Below the pieces are notes generated by a model, which worked only from the letters and a program-made list of their open reading frames with translations, was not told where the DNA came from and made no database searches. 64,000 nucleotides of DNA, from the IMG/VR virus record IMGVR_UViG_3300048609_000040; one strand, written 5' to 3'. Each line of letters begins with the position of its first letter. Position 1 is the first letter of the stretch. Made by a program: the position numbers and the translations under genes. Shown here piece by piece: positions 148-25,648 of the stretch. This DNA is from an uncultured virus (IMG/VR IMGVR_UViG_3300048609_000040). Its lineage: Duplodnaviria > Heunggongvirae > Uroviricota > Caudoviricetes.

Positions 148-150
148 AAT

Positions 151-222
151 GGGGCCATCGTTCTAACGGGAAGACACGGGCTTTGCAAGCCTGGGATCAG
201 AGTTCGATTCTCTGTGGCTCCA
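151..222 (+). tRNA. tRNA-Ala(TGC)
   Basis: Acceptor GGGGCCA/TGGCTCC with G3:U70; anticodon arm CGGGC-TT-TGC-AA-GCCTG; T loop TTCGATT. Confidence 0.95.
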
Positions 223-227
223 CGTTT

Positions 228-313
228 GGAGAGGCCGTCAGGCATCGGTGCCCTGTGCACGCCCGCTAAGCGTGTGGCCGTTAGGTCTGCGGGTTCGACT
301 CCCGCCTTCTCCG
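228..313 (+). tRNA. tRNA-Ser(GCT), atypical D arm, C33
   Basis: GGAGAGG/CTTCTCC, G73; CACGC-CC-GCT-AA-GCGTG; long variable arm; GCGGG-TTCGACT-CCCGC. Confidence 0.85.
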
Positions 314-329
314 TCAAAGTGGAAAACCA

Positions 330-626
330 ATGGAAACACCAGCAGTTGAACCTTCTGACATCCGAACGTCCAAAATAGATACAGCACTCTTTGCTGAGGA
401 GCCGTGTTTCATTTGTGGGCGAGAGTTGTTCGGCAAAAAGCACTACTGGGTGCACACTAAACACGGCGCGTACGTTTATGTAGCAGAACCAACTTGCGAA
501 GAACAAGCAAGCGCGGACTACAGTGGTTTGGTTCCTATTGGAAGCAAGTGTGCCAAAGATTGTCGAGCTATTGGTATTAGTGTTTTGACAGATCGAGAGT
601 TCCAACAATTGATGCAAGGGGACTGA
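330..626 (+). CDS. hypothetical protein with Cys motifs
   Basis: 98-aa ORF filling the gap between tRNAs; CFIC and IGSKCAK motifs. Confidence 0.6.
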   Translation: METPAVEPSDIRTSKIDTALFAEEPCFICGRELFGKKHYWVHTKHGAYVYVAEPTCEEQASADYSGLVPIGSKCAKDCRAIGISVLTDREFQQLMQGD

Positions 627-629
627 TTT

Positions 630-701
630 CGGGGTGTAGCTCAGGAGTAGAGCGCTCGGCCTGGGACCGAGAGGCCGGTGGTGCGATTCCACCTACCCCG
701 A
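630..701 (+). tRNA. tRNA-Pro(TGG)
   Basis: CGGGGTG/TACCCCG; CTCGG-CC-TGG-GA-CCGAG; T loop TGCGATT. Confidence 0.93.
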
Positions 702-756
702 CGATAACAAGACTCCTAACCAGAGAAGTTTCACGTCGACAACAAACGATAACTGA

Positions 757-809
757 TGCGGCACTTCGTCAACGAAGATGAGATGGGTTCGATTCCCGTC
801 ACCTGCTCA
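757..809 (+). pseudogene. degenerate tRNA remnant (Gly-like 3' half)
   Basis: T arm ATGGG-TTCGATT-CCCGT plus acceptor strand CACCTGC-T-CA resembling tRNA-Gly at 1187; anticodon loop collapsed (CTTCG-TCAA-CGAAG); no 5' acceptor strand. Confidence 0.5.
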
Positions 810-849
810 ATGCTTGTAAGGCTTACAACAGTTCGATAGTATCAATGAC

Positions 850-1098
850 ATGGATCTAGAAACTCTGTTTGTGTCGGTAGAGACTGCAATACACAATCAT
901 CCTACTTTGTTGTTGGTGACACATCCTACGAGTCCCTATCTGGTATTGAGTCGAATGGGCAGTACCTTAAAGGTACTGATAAAGCTTCAAGGTAGTCGAA
1001 AGAAACCGACAGAGATTTGGGGTGAAGGTGACACCCCAACAGAAGCAGCAGCCGACTTGATTAGAACATTGGATTTTTGGGCACAATCGATACGGTAA
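850..1098 (+). CDS. hypothetical protein
   Basis: 82-aa ORF; TAGTAT -10-like box 7 nt upstream of the ATG. Confidence 0.6.
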   Translation: MDLETLFVSVETAIHNHPTLLLVTHPTSPYLVLSRMGSTLKVLIKLQGSRKKPTEIWGEGDTPTEAAADLIRTLDFWAQSIR

Positions 1099-1102
1099 CA
1101 AT

Positions 1103-1176
1103 GCCGGCTTCGTTCAATAGAAGGACCCCTGTCCTACACACAGGTGACGGCGGTGCAAATCCGTCAGCCGGTACCA
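1103..1176 (+). tRNA. tRNA-Val(TAC)
   Basis: GCCGGCT/AGCCGGT-A-CCA; CCTGT-CC-TAC-AC-ACAGG; T loop TGCAAAT. Confidence 0.93.
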
Positions 1177-1186
1177 AGTACAATAT

Positions 1187-1257
1187 GCAGGTGTGATGTA
1201 ATGGTAGCATCACTGGCCTCCAACCAGTGCGTGGGTGTTCGAGTCACCTCGCCTGCT
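1187..1257 (+). tRNA. tRNA-Gly(TCC)
   Basis: GCAGGTG/CGCCTGC, U73; ACTGG-CC-TCC-AA-CCAGT. Confidence 0.93.
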
Positions 1258-1268
1258 CCGTTAGGTTA

Positions 1269-1342
1269 GCCCACATAGCATAGCTGGCCAATGCGTCTGT
1301 TTCGTAAGCAGGAGATCGTCGGTTCGACTCCGACTGTGGGCT
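1269..1342 (+). tRNA. tRNA-Thr(CGT)
   Basis: GCCCACA/TGTGGGC; TCTGT-TT-CGT-AA-GCAGG; GTCGG-TTCGACT-CCGAC. Confidence 0.93.
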
Positions 1343-1356
1343 CGCCAAAGTATTGT

Positions 1357-1428
1357 GCCCGGTGTTGGATCACGGTGATCCGTCTGGTTTGTACCCAGAT
1401 TCATGCGGTTCGACTCCGTCACCGGGCT
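1357..1428 (+). tRNA. tRNA-Thr(TGT), 8/4 acceptor/T-stem fold
   Basis: GCCCGGTG/CACCGGGC (8 bp), T stem GCGG/CCGT (4 bp), TCTGG-TT-TGT-AC-CCAGA. Confidence 0.85.
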
Positions 1429-1430
1429 CT

Positions 1431-2033
1431 ATGAACGCTTCAGAAGCAGGAAAACTAGGTTGGAAAGCCACAGCGGTGTTGCACAAGGCACGGCGTGCAA
1501 AATTCCGTGCGGCGTATGACGCGGCACCAAAGCACTGCAAATGGTGTGACAAACCTATTCCTTATGCACGTCGTGAGAATAAGTATTGTAACCGTCACTG
1601 TGCTGGTTTTGGGCGTCCCAGAAAATTAGAAAAACAAGAGAGCGCTACGGAAAGTGCAACATGTGAAGGTTGTGGAAAGGCGTTCATCGTAAAACGGAGT
1701 TGCCTTGGAAAGTATTGTAGCAATCAGTGCCAACAAAACAATAAAAGTCGAAAACTGTTTGAGGCTGGATTAGCAGATCGAAGGTGCGCAAGGCATAATC
1801 TGCTTAAGTCTCACGGCAACGTTTGTTGGATCTGTAAGATAACGCGTTGGCAGGGACAGCCTGTGGCGCTTGTTCTTGACCACATTGACGGGAACTCTGA
1901 CAACAACCAACCGGCAAACCTCCGTATGGTGTGTCCGAATTGTGATGCACAGCTTCCGACGTACAAAGGCAAAAACAGGGGAAACGGACGTGCTTATCGT
2001 CGAGAACGCTACCACCAGGGAAAATCGTATTGA
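1431..2033 (+). CDS. HNH homing endonuclease with Zn-finger repeats
   Basis: LDHIDGNSDNNQPANLRMVCPNC motif and several CxxC; start moved to ATG 1431, after the tRNA. Confidence 0.9.
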   Translation: MNASEAGKLGWKATAVLHKARRAKFRAAYDAAPKHCKWCDKPIPYARRENKYCNRHCAGFGRPRKLEKQESATESATCEGCGKAFIVKRSCLGKYCSNQCQQNNKSRKLFEAGLADRRCARHNLLKSHGNVCWICKITRWQGQPVALVLDHIDGNSDNNQPANLRMVCPNCDAQLPTYKGKNRGNGRAYRRERYHQGKSY

Positions 2034-2056
2034 GGTGGTGTAGACGCTGCTGTTAT

Positions 2057-2128
2057 TCCGGGGTAGTTCAGCGGAAGAACGCCGCACTGTTAATGCGGAT
2101 GACACAAGTTCGATCCTTGTCCCCGGAG
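2057..2128 (+). tRNA. tRNA-Asn(GTT)
   Basis: TCCGGGG/CCCCGGA, G73; CCGCA-CT-GTT-AA-TGCGG. Confidence 0.96.
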
Positions 2129-2147
2129 CCGTAGTGAGAAAATCGTC

Positions 2148-2263
2148 TGGGAGAGGGTGAACCTCCCAAACAGGCAAAGGAGACTGGAATTTCCGCGTGC
2201 CCTGTGAGTATCCAGTCTCGATGGAAAGCCGTGGACCACCAGCACGGTGCCAAATCCTGGTGG
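2148..2263 (+). ncRNA. candidate structured RNA of unknown class
   Basis: Three consecutive hairpins (GGGAG/CTCCC, GAGACTGGA/TCCAGTCTC, CCACCAG/CTGGTGG) between two tRNAs; no ORF. Confidence 0.45.
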
Positions 2264-2268
2264 GCTCT

Positions 2269-2340
2269 CCGCCCATAGTTTAACTAGCAGAACTCGTGCT
2301 CGATAAGCGCGAAAAGATGGTGCAACTCCATCTGGGCGGA
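2269..2340 (+). tRNA. tRNA-Ile(GAT)
   Basis: CCGCCCA/TGGGCGG; CGTGC-TC-GAT-AA-GCGCG; T loop TGCAACT. Confidence 0.92.
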
Positions 2341-2346
2341 CCGAAC

Positions 2347-2418
2347 GGCCCTGTCATCTAGCGGTTAGGATATCGCCCCTTCAAGGCGGTTACACGGGTT
2401 CGAGTCCCGTCAGGGTCA
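2347..2418 (+). tRNA. tRNA-Glu(TTC)
   Basis: GGCCCTG/CAGGGTC; TCGCC-CC-TTC-AA-GGCGG. Confidence 0.94.
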
Positions 2419-2737
2419 CTTACGGCGAATAACAAACTGGCCAGCGTGGTTTGCTAACTCGAATCGATCGTTGCCGCAACGACCCAACTGGATTGTTTGT
2501 CCTGATGTCGGCAGTTTTGAACAGTCCATTTTGATGCCTGCCATATCTAGCGCCATCAAAGCTCCGGGTTGTCCTACTGCAGCATCCTTTACAGGAAGCC
2601 TACGTAACTTACAGATGTCATTCGCCTTTTTCTTCATCAAGATTATTCTACGCTGTTTGCTGCGCTTGTCGTAGCGATCTGTTAAGGTGTGCTCTGTTGT
2701 TTTTGTCTTACGACATCCAGACAAGGAAATAAGAAAA

Positions 2738-3175
2738 ATGGTCAAGAAGGACTCAAGCACACCCAAGAAGAGGAAGACGCGTACTGTTGGCTCGTGGCGG
2801 GAACGCAACGTCCGACGAGTGACGGATGCAATCAAGTTCTTGGAGCGTCTCAACGAAGATCTAGCTCGTAGCGGTGCATCCATCGATGATGGCAAGAGCG
2901 CTGTGGTCTATCTGCAAGGTCTGTTGAAAGAGCTAGAAGCGGTCGACGATGCCTGGAAGCCCAACAAGAAGAGTGGTGGCGGCGGCGCATTGCAGCCAGG
3001 TGTCGTCGTCGCTTTGAAGGACGATTGCGCCGAGGTGTACAACTTCTTGCCCAAGTTGGAAGAGCGTATGGTCGGCGCAGTGGTTCAATCCGTCTTCAGC
3101 AAGACGTCCGTTGTGGTGAAGCTCAACGACGGCCAACAACACCTGTTTCAGAAGTGTCACCTTGCGAGAGAGTGA
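2738..3175 (+). CDS. hypothetical protein (basic N-terminus, possible SH3/KOW-like C-terminus)
   Basis: AAGGA upstream; coherent codon usage; 145 aa. Confidence 0.7.
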   Translation: MVKKDSSTPKKRKTRTVGSWRERNVRRVTDAIKFLERLNEDLARSGASIDDGKSAVVYLQGLLKELEAVDDAWKPNKKSGGGGALQPGVVVALKDDCAEVYNFLPKLEERMVGAVVQSVFSKTSVVVKLNDGQQHLFQKCHLARE

Positions 3176-3184
3176 CACCGTGTT

Positions 3185-3370
3185 TCCTGCCAGGAGCTAG
3201 GACCGCCCACGTTTGGAGTGGGAACGGCCTAGGGCTTGGGACCTCACCCACATCGTCGCTAGACTAGTCGTTGATCAACGCGAAAACTGAGGTTGTCTAG
3301 TCCAGTTTCAGCGAGTAGCAAAGATTGACGGTAGACGATAGAGGTTGGCGGTTCGACTCCGCCCGGATCT
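3185..3370 (+). ncRNA. candidate tRNA-like structured RNA ending in a T arm
   Basis: Nested helices ACCTC/GAGGT, ATCGTC/GACGAT, CTAGAC/GTCTAG followed by GGCGG-TTCGACT-CCGCC. Confidence 0.5.
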
Positions 3371-3442
3371 GACTTCGTAGTGAAATGGATATCACGGCAG
3401 TCTACGGAACTGCAATTGCGAGTTCGACTCTCGCCGAAGTCA
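3371..3442 (+). tRNA. tRNA-Arg(ACG)
   Basis: GACTTCG/CGAAGTC; GCAGT-CT-ACG-GA-ACTGC; A20. Confidence 0.96.
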
Positions 3443-3447
3443 CAACT

Positions 3448-3514
3448 GGGATGCGATCTGGGATCAACGCGGCCTCCAAAATCGCGTGTCGAAGTTCAAT
3501 TCTTCGGCATCCCG
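3448..3514 (+). tRNA. tRNA-Trp(CCA) with miniature D arm
   Basis: GGGATGC/GCATCCC, G73; D arm GATC-TGG-GATC; loop CT-CCA-AA; CGAAG-TTCAATT-CTTCG. Confidence 0.8.
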
Positions 3515-3523
3515 CTACAAACT

Positions 3524-3612
3524 CCGCCTTTAGCACAATGGTAGTGCAGCAGGCTTATACCCTGTAAGCGCTGGACTAGCGCGAGATGAAGGTTCGAGTC
3601 CTTCAGGGCGGA
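3524..3612 (+). tRNA. tRNA-Ile(TAT) with long variable arm
   Basis: CCGCCTT/AGGGCGG; GCAGG-CT-TAT-AC-CCTGT; variable hairpin GCGCT-GGACT-AGCGC. Confidence 0.88.
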
Positions 3613-3630
3613 CAATATAAGCGTGACGTT

Positions 3631-4026
3631 GTGCCCACTAAGATTTGTAAATGCGGTTGCGTAATAGATTGCTCTAAGTACAGAGGCAGCGTGTGTTTTA
3701 CCTGCTTGATGAAGGCACGATATGTCATACGTGAACAGAACATAATTACCCTGGTTGGAAACAGTTGCTGGATATGTGAGTATAGTGTAGATGGCTCTGG
3801 GCTCCGGTTGCTTTGTTTTCATCACATGGATCCAACACAGAAACAGTTTGGGCTGACAAAGCGGGAAATAGGAAATCACACCTGGAAAAAAGTACTGTGC
3901 GAAGTGCAGAAATGTGCGTTACTCTGCTCAAATTGTCATGCCGAAGTTCACGCCGGTTTTCTCGATGTAAAGCGTGTTGATGAGGCTTATAGAAAGCGCT
4001 GGAAGATTGGTGGTCGAAGCTACTGA
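3631..4026 (+). CDS. HNH endonuclease
   Basis: CWIC...FHHMDP...CALLCSNCHAEVH; GTG start after the tRNA. Confidence 0.85.
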   Translation: MPTKICKCGCVIDCSKYRGSVCFTCLMKARYVIREQNIITLVGNSCWICEYSVDGSGLRLLCFHHMDPTQKQFGLTKREIGNHTWKKVLCEVQKCALLCSNCHAEVHAGFLDVKRVDEAYRKRWKIGGRSY

Positions 4027-4072
4027 TGGATAAGTGATCTTGTTTGGCGGATTAGTGTGGTATGTTGAAACC

Positions 4073-4261
4073 ATGCTCACTATGCAGGTGACTGAAGGAT
4101 TTCGCTGTTTGAGTCGACCAGGTTTGCTAACTCTGGGAGCTTCAACACCAGAAGCGGAGAAGGCATATTCTCCGCCTCCACCAAGCAGGTTTTTGGTTGG
4201 TTCTGTCACGTTGGTGCTTGGTTTCCTGATTGGGTACATGGTTGGTGCACCTCGTTGGTAA
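4073..4261 (+). CDS. small membrane protein
   Basis: C-terminal TM segment; TG-G-TATGTT 6 nt upstream of the ATG. Confidence 0.55.
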   Translation: MLTMQVTEGFRCLSRPGLLTLGASTPEAEKAYSPPPPSRFLVGSVTLVLGFLIGYMVGAPRW

Positions 4262-4333
4262 CGCAGGGAGCCTAGGAGGCCAGCGGTCTTCATACGGCCG
4301 ACCGTCGCAGTTCAATTCTGCGCCCTGCGACCA
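4262..4333 (+). tRNA. tRNA-Met/Ile2(CAT) with miniature D arm
   Basis: CGCAGGG/CCCTGCG-A-CCA; D arm GCCT-AGG-AGGC; CGGTC-TT-CAT-AC-GGCCG. Confidence 0.82.
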
Positions 4334-4336
4334 TTT

Positions 4337-4408
4337 GGTGGGTATAGCTCAACGGCAGAGCGCTGGGTTGTGGTCCCAGACATGAGAGTTCGATTCTCTT
4401 TGCCCACC
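4337..4408 (+). tRNA. tRNA-His(GTG)
   Basis: G-1, GTGGGTA/TGCCCAC, C73; CTGGG-TT-GTG-GT-CCCAG. Confidence 0.95.
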
Positions 4409-4417
4409 CTGAACTAT

Positions 4418-4500
4418 GGAGCCATGGTGAAACGGTAGCCACGTTGGCCCTAAAAGCCGATGAGCGCAAGCTCGTGAGGGTTCGAGTCCCTCTGGCTCTA
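4418..4500 (+). tRNA. tRNA-Leu(TAA)
   Basis: GGAGCCA/TGGCTCT; TTGGC-CC-TAA-AA-GCCGA; long variable arm. Confidence 0.93.
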
Positions 4501-4510
4501 CAAGTTGTTC

Positions 4511-4921
4511 ATGAGAAAACTGAGAAAAATTGTCTACAAATCGCCCTGGTTCAATTTAGGTGGTTATCTTGCGTGTACTGTAAAACGTAGTGACGGTACA
4601 CGAGGCACTGTTTTTCAACACTGAGAAGTAGTAGAACAGTGCTTAAATAGAACTCTGAGAAAAAGTGAAATTGTACATCATCGCGACGGCAACAAACGAA
4701 ACAACAAACCGACCAATCTTGAAGTTACTACACTAGCTGTCCATCGTAGGTTACACGCCGAAGGCGTGGAGATGTTGAAGCTTCGTTGTCGGTTTTGTGG
4801 AAAACTGTTTCAACGACCAGCTAGACATGAAAGACATAGGAAGAAGCAAGGAAAAATGGGTCCGTTTTGTGGCAAACATTGTGTGGGAAGGTGGAGTACG
4901 GGATCGTGTCGGAACAGGTAG
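4511..4921 (+). pseudogene. HNH endonuclease with an in-frame TGA
   Basis: Reads ...VFQH*EVVEQ...IVHHRDGNKRNNKPTNL...CRFC; TGA at 4622-4624 sits where the conserved HR arginine is expected. Confidence 0.8.
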
Positions 4922-4982
4922 ACGAGCTGCGCTTAGATCGCAGTGCTCACAAAGCGTGAGAGTTCAAATCTCTCCGATCCCA
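4900..4982 (+). tRNA. tRNA-Leu(TAG)
   Basis: GGGATCG/CGATCCC; CTGCG-CT-TAG-AT-CGCAG; long variable arm. Confidence 0.94.
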
Positions 4983-4986
4983 CTTA

Positions 4987-5073
4987 GCCCAGGTGGCGAA
5001 ACTTATGGTAGCCGCCCCAGCTTGAGGTGCTGGTGGGAGAAATCCCGTGCAGGTTCGACTCCTGTCCTGGGCA
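4987..5073 (+). tRNA. tRNA-Leu(GAG)
   Basis: GCCCAGG/CCTGGGC; CCAGC-TT-GAG-GT-GCTGG; long variable arm. Confidence 0.95.
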
Positions 5074-5728
5074 CTTCTAGTTTATAGAGAAGCAGTGCTC
5101 CTACAGCTCCTCCAATAGCAGCTGTAACAAGCAACCACACCGCAGGATGTATACCTAGACCACGGTCAGTACGATTGGGAAACAACGTGAGACCGTAAGC
5201 AGCTGCCTGCGTAATCACACCGTCTCGATATCCACTTACCTTGACCAACGGCTCGGACGGGACCAGATAGCAGCCTGGTAACGTTCCCTTGATGAGTGGC
5301 GCCTTGGTTGTTGTGGGCCACCCAAAAGTCTGTTTGTAGCTTTGTAGAGCAGTTTCCCCGCAAACGTGGCTGTCGAAGTGTAGGTGTACAGCACCGCCAG
5401 CTCCGCTGTTTCCTGCGTAGCCGATTACAGCTCCTTGACGAACCTTCTGCCCCGTCGCAACGTTAACAGCGTTGAGATGGATGTAACGACTGAGTAGTAT
5501 CAATCCGCCCGGGAAGGTGTGTTTGAGCAGGACGTATTTTCCTGTCTCTCCACTACCTGATCCAGCAGCAACAACTTCACCGGCAGCCACAGCAAGGATC
5601 GGGTCATTCAGATCGTTTGCGAAGTCAAGCGAGCCGTGGATACCTTGCTTCGTACCGATGGTGCGAGAAGATGCCCAACCACTTGTGACGATGGCTTTGG
5701 TGGGTGGCGCTAGACGAGGCCATTGCAT
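5003..5728 (-). CDS. M23 family peptidoglycan endopeptidase with C-terminal TM
   Basis: HGSLDF, RYIHL and HLHF motifs; hydrophobic C-terminal segment; 3' end runs antisense into tRNA-Leu. Confidence 0.88.
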   Translation of the reverse strand: MQWPRLAPPTKAIVTSGWASSRTIGTKQGIHGSLDFANDLNDPILAVAAGEVVAAGSGSGETGKYVLLKHTFPGGLILLSRYIHLNAVNVATGQKVRQGAVIGYAGNSGAGGAVHLHFDSHVCGETALQSYKQTFGWPTTTKAPLIKGTLPGCYLVPSEPLVKVSGYRDGVITQAAAYGLTLFPNRTDRGLGIHPAVWLLVTAAIGGAVGALLLYKLEVPRTGVEPARDFSHQHLKLGRLP

Positions 5729-5752
5729 TCTTCGACGTTAGCATGATTCTAA

Positions 5753-5875
5753 GCTCGGGTGGCGAAACTTGGTAGCCGCGCAGGTTTCAAGGTACCTGTG
5801 GACGAAACGTCCGTGAAGGTTCAAACGACGTAGCTACTCGCAGCTGCAGAAGCGAGACAAATCCTTTCCCGAGCA
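5753..5875 (+). tRNA. tRNA-Leu(CAA) with 36-nt T-loop insertion and 8-nt anticodon loop
   Basis: GCTCGGG/CCCGAGC; CAGGT-TTCAAGGT-ACCTG; GAAGG-TTCAAA[5826-5861]T-CCTTT. Confidence 0.75.
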
Positions 5876-5881
5876 CGAATA

Positions 5882-5955
5882 GCCAACTTAGCCCAATTGG
5901 CAGAGGCAACAGATTCAAACCCTGTTGAGTGAGGGTTCGACTCCCTCAGTTGGCA
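5882..5955 (+). tRNA. tRNA-Leu(CAA) with short variable loop
   Basis: GCCAACT/AGTTGGC, A73; loop TT-CAA-AC; 5-nt variable region. Confidence 0.85.
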
Positions 5956-5993
5956 CTAAATAGCGTAGAATACGCAGAAAGGAGCGTGCTGCT

Positions 5994-6533
5994 ATGGAAG
6001 CCGCGATTCATCTGAGAACTTTGATGTTGTCACAGGCATATGAACCAGTGAAGGTAATCTCGTGGCGCCGAGCCGTAACGCTTCTTTCCTTGGGGAAGGT
6101 CGAAATCGTCGAGGAACACGACTGTTTTGTACGGTCTCCGACGATCGTGATCAAAATACCGGCTGTGGTACGACTTCTGCGTGCGTTCAAGCGCTTTAGG
6201 AAACTGGTGAAATTCTCCAGGATCAATATCTACGCACGCGACAACTATACATGTCAGTACTGCGGAGCCAAGAAACGAATCGCGGACCTGACCTACGACC
6301 ACGTTACTCCTCGTAGTCAAGGCGGAAAAACCACGTGGACGAACATCGTTACTTCTTGCGCAATTTGCAATCGCCAAAAAGGTGGTAGAACGCCGGAACA
6401 GGCAGGTATGACATTACGTAAGAAGCCGGTCGTACCGAGCTGGGTGCCCGTTGTAACAATCAGTGTTAACGGGGACAACACACCGGATAGCTGGAGAGAT
6501 TACTTGTATTGGACGACAGAGCTACAGGAGTAG
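5994..6533 (+). CDS. HNH endonuclease (McrA-like)
   Basis: RDNYTCQYCG...TYDHVTPRSQGG...NIVTSCAICNRQKG; AAGGAG RBS. Confidence 0.93.
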   Translation: MEAAIHLRTLMLSQAYEPVKVISWRRAVTLLSLGKVEIVEEHDCFVRSPTIVIKIPAVVRLLRAFKRFRKLVKFSRINIYARDNYTCQYCGAKKRIADLTYDHVTPRSQGGKTTWTNIVTSCAICNRQKGGRTPEQAGMTLRKKPVVPSWVPVVTISVNGDNTPDSWRDYLYWTTELQE

Positions 6534-6538
6534 TTCTA

Positions 6539-6621
6539 GGAAGGTGAGGGCGGGATGGTCCTGCCGCCTGTCTTGAAAACAGGAAGGCCGAAAGGTCCGG
6601 GTTCGATACCTACACCTTCCG
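6539..6621 (+). tRNA. tRNA-Ser(TGA), 8/4 fold with 7-bp D stem
   Basis: GGAAGGTG/CACCTTCC, G73; D arm GGCGGGA-TGG-TCCTGCC; CCTGT-CT-TGA-AA-ACAGG; long variable arm. Confidence 0.85.
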
Positions 6622-6625
6622 CGAC

Positions 6626-6698
6626 GGTCTCATCGTTCAGCCAGGTAGGACGCTGCCCTGTCACGGCAGAAACACGAGTTCAAATCTCGTTGGGACCG
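6626..6698 (+). tRNA. tRNA-Asp(GTC)
   Basis: GGTCTCA/TGGGACC, G73; CTGCC-CT-GTC-AC-GGCAG. Confidence 0.96.
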
Positions 6699-6881
6699 CT
6701 ACACTGTTTCAATGATCCAGTCGTCAATCTCGTTGAGCAGTACACGCCAACTCGTGAATGTTGGATTCTCTTGTTGTGTGCGTGCACGTACGCGGTGTAC
6801 AAGCGTATCGAGCTGTTTCTCAGACAGACTGATACCTAATGCCACAGCTCGTTGCTTCAAATAGTTGTGTAAGTTGTACAC
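6699..6881 (-). CDS. small hypothetical protein
   Basis: 60-aa helical ORF exactly filling the inter-tRNA gap. Confidence 0.5.
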   Translation of the reverse strand: MYNLHNYLKQRAVALGISLSEKQLDTLVHRVRARTQQENPTFTSWRVLLNEIDDWIIETV

Positions 6882-6904
6882 CTCGACGTAAGTCTACTAC
6901 GTTT

Positions 6905-7065
6905 GCCACGGTAGCTCAAACGGGAGCATGTAGAGCCGATGAATCGGGCGCCAGTGTATTGGCACGAAGGCTCACGAGCGGAGGATACGAGGTTTGAGAC
7001 GAACGGCCGTGACTCTCACAACTTTGCCCTTGCGTATGCAGGTTCGAGTCCTGCCCGTGGCTCCA
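6905..7065 (+). ncRNA. tRNA-like RNA with the anticodon arm replaced by a ~110-nt structured domain
   Basis: Acceptor GCCACGG/CCGTGGC-T-CCA, D arm GCTC/GAGC and T arm GCAGG-TTCGAGT-CCTGC are intact; 6928-7037 holds several hairpins. Confidence 0.8.
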
Positions 7066-7068
7066 AAC

Positions 7069-7141
7069 GCCGCCGTAGCTCAGCTAGTAGAGCGCATCCT
7101 CGGTAAGGATGAGGTCGGAGGTGCAACGCCTCTCGGTGGCT
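7069..7141 (+). tRNA. tRNA-Thr(GGT)
   Basis: GCCGCCG/CGGTGGC; CATCC-TC-GGT-AA-GGATG; T loop TGCAACG. Confidence 0.93.
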
Positions 7142-7162
7142 CTGGTGTGCTAGAATCGTAGC

Positions 7163-7270
7163 ATGGTGATTTTTGCGTGGGGTATCTTCGTTCTGGTTGG
7201 AGTTTTGATTGTTCTTCGCCTCATAGCTGAGATTCCGTCAGTGCGTCAGTGGCTCGAAAAACGGAAATGA
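7163..7270 (+). CDS. 35-aa membrane peptide (not in the ORF track)
   Basis: MVIFAWGIFVLVGVLIVLRLIAEIPSVRQWLEKRK; TG-C-TAGAAT 6 nt upstream. Confidence 0.6.
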   Translation: MVIFAWGIFVLVGVLIVLRLIAEIPSVRQWLEKRK

Positions 7271-7274
7271 TAAT

Positions 7275-7345
7275 TCGGGTGTCGGCTAATGGTAGGCCGT
7301 CAGACTTTGGATCTGATTATGGAGGTTCAAGTCCTCCCGCCCGAG
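7275..7345 (+). tRNA. tRNA-Gln(TTG)
   Basis: TCGGGTG/CGCCCGA, G73; TCAGA-CT-TTG-GA-TCTGA. Confidence 0.95.
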
Positions 7346-7357
7346 CTGAGGTTTCTG

Positions 7358-7843
7358 ATGCGTCGTATTCTGTTTTTGGATTTTGATGGTGTGCTTAACA
7401 GTGTTGCGTTTGCTCAACGCACGACGTTTACCGGTTGGCCAGATGGCCACATCGACCCAGAAGCTATCAAACACCTGAATCGTCTCGTCGCTGAGACGTC
7501 TGCCAAGATCGTAATCTCATCATCGTGGCGGAAGATGCTCAACGACGAAGAGTTGGCAGGTGTGTTATCCCGTGCAGGCTGCGTAGGTGAGGTTGTCGGT
7601 AAGACACCGGACTTCTACCAAGTGCCGATATGGAATCGTTCGTCGCCGATCAATAGACGATTTGTTAGAGGTGATGAAATTCAAGCCTGGCTCGACGACC
7701 ATCCCGAAGTTGAGACGTTTGCGATCCTTGACGATGATGATGACATGGCGCACCTAAGCAACTGGCTTGTTCAAACAAGCCACGAGACAGGCCTTCAGGC
7801 TGAACATGTTGAACGTGCGTTGACGTTGCTACAGGATGGGTGA
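7358..7843 (+). CDS. HAD phosphatase, HAD_SAK_2 (RNA-repair-associated) family
   Basis: LFLDFDGVLN, IVISSSWR, RGDEIQAWL and FAILDD motifs. Confidence 0.88.
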   Translation: MRRILFLDFDGVLNSVAFAQRTTFTGWPDGHIDPEAIKHLNRLVAETSAKIVISSSWRKMLNDEELAGVLSRAGCVGEVVGKTPDFYQVPIWNRSSPINRRFVRGDEIQAWLDDHPEVETFAILDDDDDMAHLSNWLVQTSHETGLQAEHVERALTLLQDG

Positions 7844-7905
7844 TTACGATCGTGATTTATCAACGGGACTCATCAAGCCCGTTGATAAATCATGATTGCC
7901 GTTGA

Positions 7906-8226
7906 TTACGGACCGTGGGGCGCGTCTTTGAAGGCTTCCCAACCAGGGAATTTTTCGATGTGTACTCGTGACTTGCCCCATTTGGACACCCACGCCAATT
8001 TCTTGCGACAACTCATGCATCGCAACACCCAATCGGCGTGGTACCCCAAACAAACGCCTCGGCAGTCGTGCCACCAATATCCTTCATCGATCCATTGAGG
8101 ACGATGTGAAACGCCTTCCTTACCACGGCACCAGGTGCGGGTGTCCTTCCTACGCGACTTCCTAGTAGGCATCACAAGGCATTCAAGAGCGCCTCTCACA
8201 ATCTCCCTCTTGTTATATGTTTCCAA
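7906..8226 (-). CDS. hypothetical Cys/His-rich protein
   Basis: ORF directly downstream of the minus-strand HNH; WCRGK and CMSC motifs. Confidence 0.5.
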   Translation of the reverse strand: METYNKREIVRGALECLVMPTRKSRRKDTRTWCRGKEGVSHRPQWIDEGYWWHDCRGVCLGYHADWVLRCMSCRKKLAWVSKWGKSRVHIEKFPGWEAFKDAPHGP

Positions 8227-8759
8227 TTCTTTCCTCGTAATATATCCTTGAGTGTACCAACTTTTATCCCTGTTTGCAGGACGATGTCTTTTCTTGTTAT
8301 GCCCGCTTGACGTAATCGAATTGCCTTACGCACTTGCGTAGGAGACACCGTAGAATTTCCACGACCCTTAACGGCCATGTCATGCATGTTGGTTGCATGT
8401 GATCCAAGAAACATATGTGCGATCCTTACACACCGAGGGTTATCACATCGATGACATATTTCAAGTGCGGCGGGAATTGGACCTTTTTCTGCTGCCCACA
8501 CAAGACGGTGTACATACGCAATTTTACCTCTCTTACCGACGCCGATAACACCGTATCCCTTGTTGTTGACAGCTCCGGTCCAATTCCAACAAGTTTTTGT
8601 TTTTGTAACACGGGACCAGAGGCGCGGCATAAGCGGCAGGATTACACGAATTGGTTTAGGGGCTTCATTATTGATGTAGATGTGCCGATAATGCGACGCA
8701 CACCACCCACGTGCTAAAACCTTTCGACCACATTTCGGAAAACGACAAATCTTTGACAT
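8196..8759 (-). CDS. HNH homing endonuclease (HNH_3 type) with C-terminal HTH
   Basis: CWNWTGA...GYG...YVHRLVW...ICHRCDNPRCV; start at MSKIC. Confidence 0.92.
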   Translation of the reverse strand: MSKICRFPKCGRKVLARGWCASHYRHIYINNEAPKPIRVILPLMPRLWSRVTKTKTCWNWTGAVNNKGYGVIGVGKRGKIAYVHRLVWAAEKGPIPAALEICHRCDNPRCVRIAHMFLGSHATNMHDMAVKGRGNSTVSPTQVRKAIRLRQAGITRKDIVLQTGIKVGTLKDILRGKNWKHITRGRL

Positions 8760-8809
8760 CACCTTTTCATAACATGTTGGAACATTGAGTGCAAATCGTA
8801 GAAACAGTT

Positions 8810-8885
8810 GGCCCTGTAGCCAAGCTAGCAAAGGCAATGGTCCGCAAAACCATGATCCTCGGTGCGAATCCGAGCAGGGCCTCCA
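8810..8885 (+). tRNA. tRNA-Cys(GCA)
   Basis: GGCCCTG/CAGGGCC-T-CCA; ATGGT-CC-GCA-AA-ACCAT; T loop TGCGAAT. Confidence 0.94.
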
Positions 8886-8915
8886 AGGCTTCACGTGTGG
8901 TACACTCAGCATGTC

Positions 8916-9356
8916 ATGCGCAAACGAAAATCACTAGACGGAGGTGTTGAACAGTCCCCACCAACAGTTGCTGAAGCGGTCGAGGTTCTCGACACCGCTT
9001 ACAGTGAGCTAACCAAGGCGGCATCGAAAATCAAGCGACGTGAAGCTGCTGAGAAGGGCTGGTTGGCCGCGAGGTTACTAGCACAAGCTGTTTTGGCCTG
9101 CGCCAACGAAGATTGGCGGTCGCCTGAAGGGTTGGCGATGCGGCTTCGTCGAACAGAACTCAAACTGGACCCGCATTGTAGACCGTGGCTCGACGAGGCT
9201 ATACGTATAGGACGTGACAGCTTACACGGGCAGTGCTTCTACACAGGTGCTGAGGAAGCCTGTCAAACAAACGAAATCCGTGCAGGGCTTGATAAAGTCA
9301 AACTGGCAATACCACGCGCAAAACGTCTTTGCACAATCGGATCACGCAAGAAGTAG
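8916..9356 (+). CDS. PaREP1/HEPN-like helical protein
   Basis: EAAEKGWLAA and LHGQCFYTG resemble the PaREP1 A.EK.W.A and LH..FY.G motifs. Confidence 0.55.
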   Translation: MRKRKSLDGGVEQSPPTVAEAVEVLDTAYSELTKAASKIKRREAAEKGWLAARLLAQAVLACANEDWRSPEGLAMRLRRTELKLDPHCRPWLDEAIRIGRDSLHGQCFYTGAEEACQTNEIRAGLDKVKLAIPRAKRLCTIGSRKK

Positions 9357-9802
9357 ATCCTGTAGCTGTAGGAGGAAAGCTCGTGAATAAACAGAATCAA
9401 GATTGGGTTTGGGCGTATCACACGACAACCAAAGCTAATTTGGAATCTATTTGTCAGTACGGGTTATGTCCAACCTGGCACGAGCATGTTGAAGACGCAC
9501 CAGTCATCTTTGTAGAGCCCGACGTTGAGGGGTTGGAACCTTACGTCGATGCGGATAGTGTTGTGTTTCGTTTTAAAACACCTGGGTTTGGAACTACGGA
9601 AGATGGAGAAGCTGTAATCTACGGAGGGCCGGGCCGTTCTGGTCGTCCTGATCCTCCGTTTGTTGGTGACGTAGGAAGTGATGGTGTAATACCGCCAAGC
9701 AATCTTGAGATTTTATACAAGCGTCGTTGGGTTAATTTAGGCCGGTACTGTTAACACAACATTAACGTCTCGCTGGCAACACCACACACAAAACGTCTTT
9801 GC
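9303..9802 (+). repeat. 30-nt imperfect direct repeats (9303-9332, 9773-9802) flanking the ART-like gene
   Basis: CTGGCAATACCACGCGCAAAACGTCTTTGC vs CTGGCAACACCACACACAAAACGTCTTTGC (27/30 identical). Confidence 0.85.
9383..9754 (+). CDS. ADP-ribosyltransferase/Tpt1-like fold protein
   Basis: AYHTT...NLESI...GL.P...IFV pattern of the ART fold; GGAGG RBS before GTG. Confidence 0.55.
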   Translation: MNKQNQDWVWAYHTTTKANLESICQYGLCPTWHEHVEDAPVIFVEPDVEGLEPYVDADSVVFRFKTPGFGTTEDGEAVIYGGPGRSGRPDPPFVGDVGSDGVIPPSNLEILYKRRWVNLGRYC

Positions 9803-9805
9803 TTG

Positions 9806-9875
9806 GCCTCGCGGGCCGGATGCCCAGTTACGTCTTCTAAATGTGACGTGCTAAGTTCAACTCTTAGGCGAGGCG
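9806..9875 (+). tRNA. tRNA-Arg(TCT) with miniature D arm
   Basis: GCCTCGC/GCGAGGC; D arm GGGC-CGGAT-GCCC; loop CT-TCT-AA; CTAAG-TTCAACT-CTTAG. Confidence 0.82.
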
Positions 9876-9878
9876 CTT

Positions 9879-9950
9879 GATCCCGTGGCTGAACAGATTA
9901 GGCGCCGCTCCCCTAAAGCGGACTATACGGGTGCAAATCCTGTCGGGATC
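9879..9950 (+). tRNA. tRNA-Arg(CCT)-like with a 6-nt anticodon loop (CCCTAA)
   Basis: GATCCCG/CGGGATC; CCGCT-CCCTAA-AGCGG; Arg-type D loop; T loop TGCAAAT. Confidence 0.7.
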
Positions 9951-9959
9951 ACTTCTTAC

Positions 9960-11115: not shown

Positions 11116-11391
11116 ATGGCAAAGCAACCAAAGAAAGCCGTTCTTGACCTTGGACTTATTCCAGGCACACCAGCTGAGCAGCGTGCTCGTGCTCGCACGA
11201 TGCAGTACCCAATCGTCATCGAGAAGGTTGGCAGTCGTTACCGTATCGATGTTGTAGGCACACCAATCGGTTTCGTTCCTACCAAGAAAGCAGCGTGTAG
11301 CGCCGCACATCAAGTAGGTCGTTACCGTTTGCAACTGGGCGACATGGCTTTCGCGTACGTGAAGGGCTGGAAAGGCTGTGAGCGAGCCTGA
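11116..11391 (+). CDS. hypothetical protein
   Basis: TG-A-TAAGTT 6 nt before the ATG; TGATG overlap with the next gene. Confidence 0.6.
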   Translation: MAKQPKKAVLDLGLIPGTPAEQRARARTMQYPIVIEKVGSRYRIDVVGTPIGFVPTKKAACSAAHQVGRYRLQLGDMAFAYVKGWKGCERA

Positions 11392-11993
11392 TGTTAGGTC
11401 AAGTTGAGCCTTTCCAGCAAAGTACGCAATTCAACTGCTCAGCGGCGTCGTTGCATGCCGTACTCAAGCATTGGGGCCGCGACATCGACGAGTCAGCTCT
11501 GGCACAGTTGCTTCACGTCAGTCCTGTCTTCGGAGCGACTGCCAAGCGTGTAGTAAAGGTTGCACGAGGCCTCGGCTACAAAGCCACTCAACGACATTTT
11601 CGATCGCTAGCCGAACTGAAAAGCCTAACAGACAAGGATGTTCCAGTTATCGCCCGCGTCCTTAGCTTCAAGCATCCTGGGCAGCACCACTTTGTGGTGG
11701 TTACCAGTGTTGATGCTGTTGGCGTGACGTTGATGGATCCAAACGTCGATGGAAATCGACGATGGCTTACACATCAACAAATGAAAGAGCGTTGGGTACC
11801 CAATCGTCTCGGCGTGGTTATCGTTCCGACGTCGACAGCATTTGGTGAAGTTTCGCCATCAGGCTACGTATGGACGTGGCTTGGTGCTGCAGCCGCAGCG
11901 GTTGTTGGTGTTGTAGCTGGGTGGTATTACAGGTCTCACCTTGAGGTGGTGAGTGACCATAAAAGATCTAGACGCGGTCGACCGCCGAACTAG
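11391..11993 (+). CDS. C39-like cysteine peptidase with C-terminal TM
   Basis: QQSTQFNCSAASL, HFVVV and MDP catalytic motifs; TM near the C-terminus. Confidence 0.85.
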   Translation: MLGQVEPFQQSTQFNCSAASLHAVLKHWGRDIDESALAQLLHVSPVFGATAKRVVKVARGLGYKATQRHFRSLAELKSLTDKDVPVIARVLSFKHPGQHHFVVVTSVDAVGVTLMDPNVDGNRRWLTHQQMKERWVPNRLGVVIVPTSTAFGEVSPSGYVWTWLGAAAAAVVGVVAGWYYRSHLEVVSDHKRSRRGRPPN

Positions 11994-13438: not shown

Positions 13439-13603
13439 ATGAATAGGAACGACAGGCTAGTTGTGGTTCACTTGTTGCTCCGCGAGGAAGACGTAAAGAC
13501 AACGCGTCGCATCGCGAAGAAGCTTGGAACGGCCTATCAGGCACTGTTGCGGTGTTGGATCGCCGAAAAAGTAATCGAAGAATCGAAGCTGTCGATCACG
13601 TAA
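13439..13603 (+). CDS. CopG/ribbon-helix-helix-like small regulator (not in the ORF track)
   Basis: 54 aa, VHLLLREEDV...IAKKLGTAYQALLRCWIAEKV; TTGACA at 13402 upstream. Confidence 0.6.
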   Translation: MNRNDRLVVVHLLLREEDVKTTRRIAKKLGTAYQALLRCWIAEKVIEESKLSIT

Positions 13604-13620
13604 AACAGAGGACGATTAAG

Positions 13621-23315: not shown

Positions 23316-23317
23316 AC

Positions 23318-25528: not shown

Positions 25529-25605
25529 AGGTGACACAAGCGACAAGAAAAACACAGAAAACGATCAATAAAATCCATCGGATACAACAAAGTGCATGAT
25601 CGTCG

Positions 25606-25634: not shown

Positions 25635-25648
25635 GCTTCTTGCTTCGA

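What the first reader, a model, noticed from the sequence alone, without database searches (positions are those of the whole stretch)
6905..7065. tRNA frame with a ~110-nt multi-hairpin domain replacing the anticodon arm
The acceptor (7 of 7 pairs, U73, encoded CCA), D arm and T arm are intact, so this does not look like decay. The insert has its own helices: GAGCC/GGCTC, GCCAGT/ATTGGC and TGAGA/TCTCA. It is too short for a group I intron, and I cannot rebuild an anticodon loop by removing one segment. It may be a tRNA-scaffolded functional RNA, chargeable via a Thr-like acceptor, or an unknown small intron type.
Basis: partly seen in the sequence, partly recalled or inferred. Interest (0 to 1): 0.72.

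Follow-up and report, generated by a model that had tools for sequence, protein, structure and literature searches.

The report
Anticodon-less tRNA-shaped RNA in phage
Inside a large phage's cluster of tRNA genes sits a 161-base gene that keeps a tRNA's ends and corner but has two long hairpins where the decoding arm should be, so it most likely makes a tRNA look-alike RNA of unknown job, a kind of thing seen before in phages.

Summary
Window 6905-7065 (+) has a perfect 7-bp acceptor stem, U73, an encoded CCA, a 4-bp D arm and a 5-bp T arm with a UUCGAGU loop. These surround 109 nt (6929-7037) that contain no anticodon hairpin. Rfam's tRNA model scores it 31.8 bits against a cut-off of 29, with the anticodon arm replaced by an insertion.

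It lies in a phage-like soil-metagenome contig, in an array of 24 ordinary tRNA genes. It folds as a five-armed, class-II-like cloverleaf with two long hairpins. No single excision gives a credible tRNA.

The insert matches no Rfam family. It is not repeated in the window. It has no homologue in GenBank phages, IMG/VR or three related huge phages.

Related phages in groundwater metagenomes keep it nearly unchanged: 2 differences in 165 nt, against 148 in 1,739 nt of neighbouring coding DNA.

Best reading, confidence 0.5: a functional, non-decoding tRNA-like RNA, cut out like a tRNA, whose hairpins are the working part. Rivals are a rearranged tRNA relic (0.25) and an insert-bearing tRNA with an unknown kind of intron (0.15).

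The nearest classical analogue is T4 rnaC. Similar insert-bearing tRNA frames occur in other phages. Expression and function were not tested.

The parts
6905..6911 (+). acceptor stem, 5' strand (GCCACGG)
   Evidence: Pairs 7/7 Watson-Crick with 7055-7061.
6912..6928 (+). U8 A9, D arm (GCTC / AAACGG / GAGC) and A26
   Evidence: Aligned to the D arm of RF00005, with two D-loop positions missing. The stem is 4/4.
6929..6975 (+). hairpin A, in the place of the anticodon arm. It has GU/AC plus GAGCC/GGCUC at the base, internal loops, GCCA/UGGC at the tip and the loop GUGUAU. It has no 7-nt anticodon loop.
   Evidence: Pair probabilities are 0.7 to 0.92 with the frame held fixed. No hairpin of 5 pairs with a 7-nt loop and U33 exists anywhere in the element.
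6976..7037 (+). GA linker, 58-nt hairpin B (6978-7035) in the place of a class-II variable arm, then AU linker
   Evidence: The central 12 pairs have probabilities of 0.91 to 1.0. A class-II tRNA-Leu(CAG) of a related phage reads AUGCAGGUUCGAGUCCUG at its own arm-to-T-stem junction, the same 18 letters as here.
7038..7054 (+). T arm (GCAGG / TTCGAGT / CCTGC)
7055..7065 (+). acceptor stem 3' strand (CCGTGGC), discriminator U73, encoded CCA
6699..6881 (-). 60-codon ORF on the opposite strand, directly upstream. It belongs to the block that is conserved with the element in relatives. Whether it has any link to the RNA is unknown.
   Evidence: ORF list. Relatives carry an in-frame 3-nt deletion at 6876 and cover 6662-7143 in one piece. 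No Pfam or NCBIfam family. No relative in IMG/VR.
7069..7142 (+). tRNA-Thr(GGU), 3 nt downstream, with the same acceptor-end type (GCC...GGC-U)
   Evidence: ARAGORN. Rfam 51.8 bits.

Best explanation
This is a gene for a tRNA-derived RNA that cannot decode.

Inferred steps:
- It is transcribed with the neighbouring tRNA genes.
- It is cut out by the enzymes that mature tRNAs: RNase P at the 5' end and trimming back to the encoded CCA at the 3' end.
- It folds into a tRNA-like 'top half and elbow', made of the acceptor/T helix and the D-loop/T-loop corner.
- This tRNA frame gives processing, stability and recognition by tRNA-binding proteins.

Shown from the sequence:
- Two long hairpins of 47 and 58 nt stand where the anticodon arm and a class-II variable arm would be.
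- There is no anticodon loop, so it cannot read codons.

The hairpins are taken to be the functional cargo. The most likely roles are to bind or titrate a tRNA-recognising host or phage factor (a decoy in the tRNA-centred conflict between phage and host), or to act as a protein-binding small RNA. Expression, processing, charging and target were not tested.
For: Frame:
- It is intact and beyond chance: RF00005 31.8 bits, the only strict long frame in the window with 0 in 100 shuffles, and 158 of 20,000 shuffles for a matching 5' half.
- The tertiary-contact letters are present: U8, A14, G18G19, the UUC of the T loop, and an A15/U48 pair.
- The CCA is encoded. By my reading, 5 of 26 frames in the window have one.

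Fold:
- The cloverleaf plus two self-contained hairpins is the minimum-energy fold without constraints. It dominates the ensemble when the frame is fixed.

Replacement, not insertion:
- The 109 nt replace the anticodon arm rather than interrupt it. No removal of one segment restores a good arm, and there is no anticodon-type hairpin.

Not a repeat:
- The insert is not a repeated or mobile sequence in the window or in the loci held at that point.

Conservation:
- A 165-nt contig of run X9 covers 6883-7047 with 2 differences.
- A 54-kb contig of run X2 and a 1.4-kb contig of run X6 cover 6662-7143 with 15 differences and a 3-nt deletion.
- Four neighbouring coding pieces differ at 148 of 1,739 positions. 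Fisher p = 2e-4.
- The blocks on both sides of 6662-7143 are replaced in the relative.

Context:
- The element sits in a phage tRNA array: 24 ARAGORN calls and one more from Rfam, 24 of the 25 within 1-9952.
- An RNA-repair-type HAD gene lies next to it (PF18143, E 1.8e-32).

Precedent:
- T4 carries stable RNAs of unknown function in its tRNA cluster, and rnaC has a T arm.
- Other insert-bearing frames exist in IMG/VR phages and in related huge phages.
Against: - No expression data exist. No RNA run holds the sequence.
- The conservation evidence is shallow. It rests on one close lineage, and the positions of the 2 differences were not shown.
- The whole block 6662-7143 is little diverged (15 of 482). 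The contrast with the adjacent ORF alone is weak: 2/165 against at least 10/221, p = 0.08. That comparison also assumes that runs X2 and X9 hold the same variant.
- No covariation can be shown.
- The fold energy is no better than that of shuffles, z -0.79.
- Three related huge phages (VWA protein 63-65% identical) have no counterpart. The element is therefore young or dispensable.
- The D loop lacks two usual positions, A21 among them.
- No partner protein or target was identified.
Confidence: 0.5

Rival explanations
1. Relic of rearrangement. A former tRNA gene lost its anticodon and variable region to unrelated sequence by recombination or by endonuclease-driven repair in a very fluid tRNA array. 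It is now a non-functional pseudogene that has not yet decayed.
For: - HNH endonuclease genes lie in the array at 5994-6533 and 8196-8912.
- In the relative, the segments on both sides of 6662-7143 are swapped for other DNA (joints table).
- Orphan T-arm pieces occur elsewhere in the window, at 25666-25695 and in the second half of 25725-25860.
- There is no counterpart in three related huge phages.
- The low divergence may only reflect a young or recently exchanged block.
Against: - The replacement keeps every frame helix perfect and keeps the junction letters.
- The new sequence forms exactly two closed hairpins that sit where arms belong. A random replacement would rarely do this.
- It shows 2 of 165 differences against 148 of 1,739 in flanking genes.
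- Phage genomes are under pressure to shed useless DNA (general knowledge).
Confidence: 0.25
2. Insert-bearing tRNA. About 89 nt are removed from the transcript by an unknown mechanism, as proposed for the 'enigmatic' roughly 93-nt introns of Lak megaphage tRNAs. This leaves a small working tRNA.
For: - ARAGORN's intron mode models a 72-nt tRNA(UGC) with an 89-nt intron between the 5' strand of the anticodon stem and the loop.
- Lak phages are reported to have conserved tRNA introns. I read passages of PMC6784885 and the start of its Table S6, where a tRNA-Tyr has a possible intron at 37-129.
- An IMG/VR phage contig (L116) has a Thr-like frame, GCCGCCU/AGGUGGC-U-CCA, with about 80 nt at the same place. 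By my reading, the remainder gives a 4/5 stem, the loop CAGGUAA and the variable loop AGGUC.
Against: - The only arm that can be rebuilt is UGUAG/UUGCG, with 3 G-U pairs. It has C at position 37 and a 3-nt variable loop.
- Anticodon UGC would need G3:U70 for alanine identity (recalled). Here the pair is C3-G70.
- A normal tRNA-Ala(UGC) already exists at 151-223.
- No group I family or other ribozyme family matches at E up to 10.
- The size is far below known group I introns (recalled).
- I saw no bulge-helix-bulge at the junctions by eye. The peptidoglycan hydrolases (M23, glucosaminidase) point to a bacterial host, and bacteria are not known to have a splicing endonuclease (recalled).
Confidence: 0.15
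3. Miniature tmRNA-like or Y-RNA-like (YrlA) molecule.
For: - A reading frame in the insert starts with GCC and runs 20 codons (ADESGASVLARRLTSGGYEV) to a UGA at 6995-6997.
- Rfam YrlA gives a sub-threshold match at 7031-7096: 26.6 bits against a cut-off of 69.
Against: - ARAGORN's tmRNA mode finds nothing, and the Rfam scan of 6800-7160 returned no tmRNA match.
- There is no G3:U70. A normal D stem is present where tmRNA has none (recalled). The tag does not end like known tags (recalled).
- The YrlA match is made of this element's T arm plus the next tRNA's D arm. That is a by-product of two adjacent genes with similar acceptor ends. The element itself is not circularly permuted.
Confidence: 0.03

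Closest known systems
Bacteriophage T4 rnaC and rnaD (species 1 and 2 stable RNAs of the T4 tRNA cluster)
   Same: - They are small stable RNAs of unknown function encoded among phage tRNA genes (annotation).
- rnaC (139 nt) carries a T arm, CCGGGUUCGAAUCCCGG, near its 3' end. Its ends pair, and long hairpins lie in between.
- The size is similar, and the presumed maturation is the same (recalled).
   Different: - There is no sequence similarity. A blastn search of the element against 50,697 phage records gave only T-arm-sized matches, with 0 of 726 matching records covering 80% or more of the query.
- rnaC lacks the perfect 7-bp acceptor and the canonical D arm found here, and Rfam tRNA does not match it.
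Canonical tRNA (Rfam RF00005), class II type
   Same: - It has an acceptor stem, D arm, T arm, elbow letters, discriminator and CCA.
- It has five arms, with a second hairpin between the 'anticodon' arm and the T arm. The linkers are 2 nt long, as in class II tRNAs.
   Different: - It has no anticodon loop.
- The arm in the anticodon position is 47 nt instead of 17.
- The arm in the variable position is 58 nt, against about 13-21 nt in class II tRNAs (recalled).
'Enigmatic' tRNA introns of Lak megaphages (Devoto et al. 2019, PMC6784885)
   Same: - They are phage tRNA genes with conserved inserts of about 90 nt of unknown type (passages and start of Table S6 read).
   Different: - There, the authors' tRNAscan-SE prediction places the possible intron just after the anticodon of an otherwise standard tRNA-Tyr(GTA) model.
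- Here no credible tRNA remains after removal.
YrlA / bacterial Y RNA tRNA-like module (Rfam RF02553)
   Same: - It is a tRNA mimic that cannot decode. It is linked in the literature to RNA repair and surveillance (recalled).
- An RNA-repair-type HAD gene is adjacent here.
   Different: - YrlA is circularly permuted, in the order T arm, closed acceptor, D arm. This element has the normal order and open ends.
- It scores 26.6 bits against a cut-off of 69.
- No Ro60 family appeared among the ORFs I scanned. The scan did not cover every ORF.
Engineered 'tRNA scaffold' for RNA expression, and natural t-elements (tRNA-like processing signals)
   Same: - The design is the same: cargo RNA in place of the anticodon arm, with the frame giving processing and stability (recalled).
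   Different: - The scaffold is man-made.
- t-elements flank mRNAs or rRNAs as cutting signals. Here the upstream gene is on the other strand, so no message needs cutting.

Membership tests
tRNA (RF00005) | 7-bp acceptor stem, D arm and T arm in cloverleaf order; score at or above the gathering cut-off | tested here: met
   31.8 bits against 29 in a 361-nt search. The whole-window gathering run did not report it, and default ARAGORN did not call it.
tRNA (RF00005) | Anticodon arm: 5-bp stem and 7-nt loop with U33 and a purine at 37 | tested here: not met
   No such hairpin exists in 6905-7065. Infernal replaces the 17 positions with a 93-nt insertion.
Intron-containing tRNA (any type) | Removing one segment leaves a canonical tRNA | tested here: not met
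   I tried every split that leaves 20-23 nt. The best is UGUAG/UUGCG with 3 G-U pairs, a 3-nt variable loop, and U33 only together with C37. ARAGORN -i gives the same model.
Group I intron in tRNA | Catalytic core (P3-P9), size of about 200 nt or more | tested here: not met
   No Rfam intron family matches at E up to 10 in 6800-7160. The insert is 89-109 nt. The size limit is recalled.
Archaeal-type bulge-helix-bulge intron | Two 3-nt bulges 4 bp apart at the junctions; a splicing endonuclease in the host | tested here: inconclusive
   I saw no such motif by eye around 6933/6934 and 7022/7023. No dedicated program was run. The host looks bacterial (M23 peptidase, glucosaminidase).
tmRNA | tRNA-like domain without a D stem, G3:U70, tag reading frame, pseudoknots | tested here: not met
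   ARAGORN -m finds nothing. The Rfam scan returned no tmRNA match. The pair is C3-G70 and a D stem is present.
YrlA (RF02553) | Permuted order (T arm, closed acceptor hairpin, D arm) inside a long terminal stem | tested here: not met
   26.6 bits against 69. The match spans two adjacent genes, 7031-7096.
127-150-nt long tRNA frames of related huge phages (my model R2, six members) | Full-length match to model R2 | tested here: not met
   Only the T arm matches: 7031-7054, 12.3 bits, E 0.24. The six members score 97-122 bits.
T4 rnaC-like stable RNA | Sequence or model similarity to rnaC | tested here: not met
   blastn against 50,697 phage records gave no match beyond T-arm length. The likeness is one of design only.
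Aminoacylatable tRNA-like RNA (Thr-like) | Charged by an aminoacyl-tRNA synthetase | not testable with these tools
   The acceptor end equals that of the three tRNA-Thr genes of the array. The anticodon determinants are absent.

The most novel reading that the evidence does not exclude
Large phages may carry a natural 'tRNA scaffold' device. A tRNA top half ensures precise excision, CCA maintenance and stability. It may also allow threonine-type charging. The two long hairpins that replace the anticodon and variable arms would capture or mislead a host factor that recognises tRNAs, for example an acceptor- or elbow-directed defence nuclease or modifying toxin. This would make the RNA a dedicated anti-defence decoy, co-inherited with tRNA-Thr(GGU) and a small upstream ORF.
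Probability: 0.15. Interest if true: 0.75.

Novelty: new variant of a known kind. Interest (0 to 1): 0.45.

Why it matters
- Phage tRNA clusters are now seen as weapons against host defences that destroy tRNAs. Non-decoding tRNA look-alikes in the same clusters are almost unstudied; T4 rnaC and rnaD have gone unexplained for decades (recalled).
- This element is a clean case. It has a perfect tRNA frame, no anticodon and two well-defined hairpins, and it is kept in related phages.
Together they suggest that large phages repeatedly build small RNAs on a tRNA chassis.
- If even one of them has a defined target, it would open a new class of phage counter-defence or regulatory RNAs. It would also give a natural template for RNA expression scaffolds.
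- Taken alone, this is one more orphan member with unknown function.

Tried and rejected
Homologue searches that found nothing:
- megablast of 6500-7500 against GenBank phages.
- tblastn of a 507-aa ORF against the same collection.
- Four exact patterns from the element in IMG/VR.
- The same 20-mer in GTDB genomes. It gave one hit, in a Bacteriovorax MAG, with no tRNA nearby and no flanking similarity. About one chance hit is expected by my estimate.
- 91 loci around HAD_SAK_2 relatives in IMG/VR and metagenomes. All were 47% identical or less, and ARAGORN -i found no intron-type tRNA in them.
- The 60-aa upstream ORF in IMG/VR.
- An exact protein look-up of six small ORFs over and around the element, and a homology search with the 55-aa ORF across the insert. 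These were attempts to recover the relatives' sequence indirectly. Neither found anything.
- A single-sequence covariance model R1 on three related huge-phage records. It gave only an 87-nt class-II tRNA at 18.9 bits.

Expression:
- No RNA holder was listed by the look-up of sequencing runs, so expression could not be examined.

Conservation detail:
- The letter-by-letter table of read laying was cut before the element.

Other checks:
- The sigma-70 promoter scan of 6400-7500 found none on either strand.
- Motif ideas were examined by eye and dropped: hammerhead core, kink-turn, sarcin-ricin-like, SD-like GGAGGA followed by a TTG ORF at 6994-7161, and a tmRNA tag.
- No whole genome is held for the window.
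- Literature searches gave no report of this RNA. Only the Lak phage intron report was relevant.

Full report
**What is there.** Window 6905-7065 (+) reads as follows:
- acceptor 5' strand GCCACGG
- UA
- D arm GCUC-AAACGG-GAGC
- A
- a 109-nt block (6929-7037)
- T arm GCAGG-UUCGAGU-CCUGC
- acceptor 3' strand CCGUGGC
- discriminator U
- CCA

All three frame helices are perfect Watson-Crick. The letters that build the tRNA elbow and core are present: U8, A14, G18G19, the UUC of the T loop, and A15 with U48.

Rfam's tRNA model aligns positions 1-71 to 6905-7062 at 31.8 bits (cut-off 29, E 5.6e-5). It puts 93 nt in place of the 17 anticodon-arm positions and deletes two D-loop positions. The whole-window gathering scan missed it, and also missed several normal tRNAs. 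Default ARAGORN missed it too.

**Is it more than chance?**
- A scan for long frames found only this element in the window. The scan asked for a T arm, a 7/7 acceptor 97-299 nt apart, T8 and a 4/4 D stem. It found nothing in 100 shuffles.
- For this particular T arm, a fitting 5' half arose in 158 of 20,000 shuffles of the upstream 276 nt.
- Neither half can be completed into an ordinary tRNA with sequence inside the insert, by my reading.

**Setting.**
- The window is phage-like, with many small ORFs. Family matches include HNH endonucleases, M23 peptidase, glucosaminidase, a VWA protein and an AAA ATPase.
- ARAGORN tRNA genes, and Rfam adds one at 1103-1173. Of these 25, 24 lie in 1-9952.
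- No whole genome is held. The only run with all sampled words is a soil metagenome.
- The nearest IMG/VR relatives are contigs of 372-497 kb. Their VWA protein is 63-65% identical to that of 13552-15513, so the window is probably part of a huge phage.
- The element lies between tRNA-Asp (6626-6699) with a 60-codon minus-strand ORF (6699-6881) on one side and tRNA-Thr(GGU) (7069-7142) on the other.
- Next come a 35-codon ORF, tRNA-Gln, and a gene with the HAD domain of 'Swiss Army Knife' RNA repair proteins (PF18143, E 1.8e-32).

**The insert.**
- With or without constraints, the RNA folds as a five-armed cloverleaf.
- Hairpin A (6930-6975) has GU/AC and GAGCC/GGCUC at its base, two internal loops, and GCCA/UGGC closing a 6-nt loop.
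- A GA linker follows, then hairpin B (6978-7035), about 24 imperfect pairs around a 14-nt tip, then an AU linker.
- Pair probabilities are 0.9 or more for the core helices.
- This is the topology of a class II tRNA, with hairpin A in the anticodon position and hairpin B in the variable-arm position.
- The 18 letters AUGCAGGUUCGAGUCCUG, running from the AU linker into the T arm, are identical in a class-II tRNA-Leu(CAG) of a related phage.
- The fold energy is not better than that of shuffled sequence, z -0.79. The fold alone proves nothing.

**Can a tRNA be rebuilt?**
- No hairpin with a 5-bp stem, a 7-nt loop and U33 exists in the element.
- Over all single excisions, the only 5-pair stem is UGUAG/UUGCG with three G-U pairs and a 3-nt variable loop. 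Its loop has U33 only together with C37.
- ARAGORN's intron mode returns this model as 'tRNA-Ala(UGC), 89-nt intron'.
- It lacks G3:U70, and a normal tRNA-Ala(UGC) stands at 151-223.
- The 109 nt are therefore a replacement of the decoding part, not a simple interruption.

**What the insert is not.**
- No Rfam family other than tRNA matches 6800-7160 at E up to 10, apart from a YrlA match of 26.6 bits (cut-off 69). That match is assembled from this element's T arm and the next tRNA's D arm.
- ARAGORN finds no tmRNA.
- The insert has no second copy in the window or in the loci held at that point.
- blastn against 50,697 phage records gives only T-arm-sized matches. None of the 726 matching records covers 80% of the query.

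**Relatives.**
- Four exact patterns found nothing in IMG/VR.
- One 20-mer hit in a GTDB MAG is a chance match.
- Laying Logan contigs of four metagenome runs on 5000-9000 was informative.
- A 54-kb contig (run X2) and a 1.4-kb contig (run X6) cover 6662-7143 with 15 differences and an in-frame 3-nt deletion at 6876.
- A 165-nt contig (run X9) covers 6883-7047 with 2 differences. This stretch holds the whole insert and 143 of the element's 161 nt.
- The same contigs differ from the window in four coding pieces:
  - 48 of 668 positions at 5096-5763
  - 53 of 466 at 5881-6346
  - 29 of 185 at 7376-7560
  - 18 of 420 at 7751-8170
- The blocks 6346-6618 and 7143-7376 are replaced by other DNA in the relative.
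- 2/165 against 148/1,739 gives Fisher p = 2e-4. Against the adjacent small ORF alone (at least 10/221, if X2 and X9 hold the same variant) p = 0.08.
- The element is therefore kept about as well as the neighbouring tRNA genes. It travels as a block with the small ORF and tRNA-Thr(GGU).
- Limits: the relatives form one close lineage, the table that would show the two variant positions was cut, and no covariation can be claimed.
- Three more distant huge phages have no counterpart by BLAST or by a covariance model of the element.

**A wider habit.**
- The related huge phages carry at least six other long tRNA frames of 127-150 nt. Each has a perfect acceptor, a T arm, a D-like hairpin, a 17-nt anticodon-like hairpin and a variable region of about 60 nt with conserved flanks.
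- They align with compensatory changes in all frame helices: 19 of 26 pairs.
- A model of them (R2) matches the present element only at its T arm: 12.3 bits, against 97-122 bits for the members. This element is not a member.
- A degenerate frame pattern found 5 places in IMG/VR. Two are tandem tRNAs. Three (L112, L113, L116) are further insert-bearing frames.
- One of them, L116, has a Thr-like end (GCCGCCU/AGGUGGC-U-CCA) and about 80 nt after the 5' strand of its anticodon stem.
- The window holds another acceptor-plus-T-arm RNA at 18354-18471, and orphan T-arm pieces at 25666-25695 and within 25725-25860.
- Earlier notes of this scan describe several independent anticodon-less tRNA-shaped RNAs in phages, with T4 rnaC as the nearest known thing. 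Those notes are leads, not evidence.
- I checked T4 myself. rnaC (139 nt) and rnaD (119 nt) are annotated as small stable RNAs in the tRNA cluster. rnaC folds with a T arm near its 3' end and paired termini. Rfam tRNA does not match it.
- Lak megaphages are reported to have conserved tRNA introns of unknown type, about 93 nt in the one example I saw (PMC6784885: abstract, passages and start of Table S6 read).

**Reading.**
- Most likely (0.5) this is a functional, non-decoding tRNA-like RNA. The frame would give excision by tRNA-maturing enzymes, stability and recognition. The two hairpins would be the cargo. A decoy or protein-binding role fits the tRNA-centred arms race and the adjacent RNA-repair-type gene. 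All of this is inference.
- A rearrangement relic (0.25) is favoured by the fluid, endonuclease-rich array and by the absence from more distant relatives. It is disfavoured by the exact preservation of the frame and the tidy two-hairpin replacement.
- An unknown kind of intron (0.15) is disfavoured by the poor product.
- tmRNA- or YrlA-like readings (0.03) fail their defining features.
- The remainder is left open.

**Verdict.** This is a new, so far orphan variant of a known but unexplained kind: tRNA-like RNAs in phage tRNA clusters. Interest is moderate. It would rise sharply with proof of expression and a target.

Noticed in passing
window 18354-18471 (+): A second tRNA-like RNA candidate lies in a 300-nt gap between ORFs. 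It has a 6-bp terminal stem GGGCGC/GCGCCC and a T arm CUCGG-UUCGAUU-CUGAG, with internal hairpins. Fold z is -2.53. It gives a weak full-length match to my model R2 (14.8 bits) and no Rfam match.
   Followed up: partly
window 25590-25860 (+): Orphan tRNA pieces lie upstream of tRNA-Arg (25863). One is a T arm preceded by ACAAGCA, as in the long frames of related phages (25666-25695, R2 local match 16.5 bits). The other, in the second half of 25725-25860 (R2 local match at 25812-25826), is a minihelix: GGUGGGU, 14 nt, T arm CUGG-UUCGACU-CCAG, then AACCCACC.
   Followed up: partly
window 7069-7142, 4987-5074, 3524-3613: Several array tRNAs are unusual. tRNA-Thr(GGU) has C at position 33 (loop UCGGUAA) and a T loop UGCAACG. 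ARAGORN's 'tRNA-Lys(CUU)' at 4987-5074 reads better as a class-II tRNA-Leu(GAG) (CCAGC-UUGAGGU-GCUGG). The 90-nt 'tRNA-Ile(UAU)' at 3524-3613 has a long variable arm.
   Followed up: partly
window 39925-40542 (-): A 205-aa ORF matches release factor 1 over positions 164-325 of 361 (TIGR00019, 197 bits, below the cut-off of 423; Pfam RF-1 and part of PCRF). It is a truncated phage-borne RF1-like protein. It matches PrfH less well, at 78 bits.
   Followed up: partly
window 7289-7843 (+), probably starting after tRNA-Gln (about 7358): This gene has the HAD domain of 'Swiss Army Knife' RNA repair proteins (PF18143, E 1.8e-32; phrog_1818). Among 91 loci with relatives of it, 4 hold 3 or more tRNA genes.
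   Followed up: partly
L107 3846-3972 and 4145-4271 (+); L109 6890-7021 (-); L110 15892-16024, 15731-15879, 15078-15207 (-): This is a family of 127-150-nt long tRNA frames in two related huge phages. Each has an anticodon-like hairpin and a variable region of about 60 nt with conserved flanks. 19 of 26 consensus pairs show compensatory changes. Default ARAGORN did not call them, and Rfam tRNA did not report them.
   Followed up: partly
L093 15910-16002 (+): A bacterial small SRP RNA (RF00169, 57.7 bits, cut-off 40) is encoded inside the tRNA array of a 497-kb phage contig.
   Followed up: no
L095 18520-18575 (+), and L112: These show a permuted, YrlA-like order: T arm, closed acceptor hairpin (UUUUCC / GGAAAA), then D arm. 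The Rfam YrlA score is 23.8 bits (cut-off 69). The arrangement is nested among other tRNA-like pieces. A similar arrangement (CGGCCU / GGGCCG) is seen in L112.
   Followed up: partly
L116 294-448 (+); L113 301-448 (-): These are two further phage tRNA frames with inserts of about 73-80 nt in or beside the anticodon arm. L116 has a Thr-like end with an encoded CCA.
   Followed up: partly
window 18645-19265, 23222-23896, 11391-11993, 58910-59890: The window also encodes a Prok-JAB domain protein, a ThiF-family (E1-like) protein, a C39 peptidase and a pentapeptide-repeat protein.
   Followed up: no
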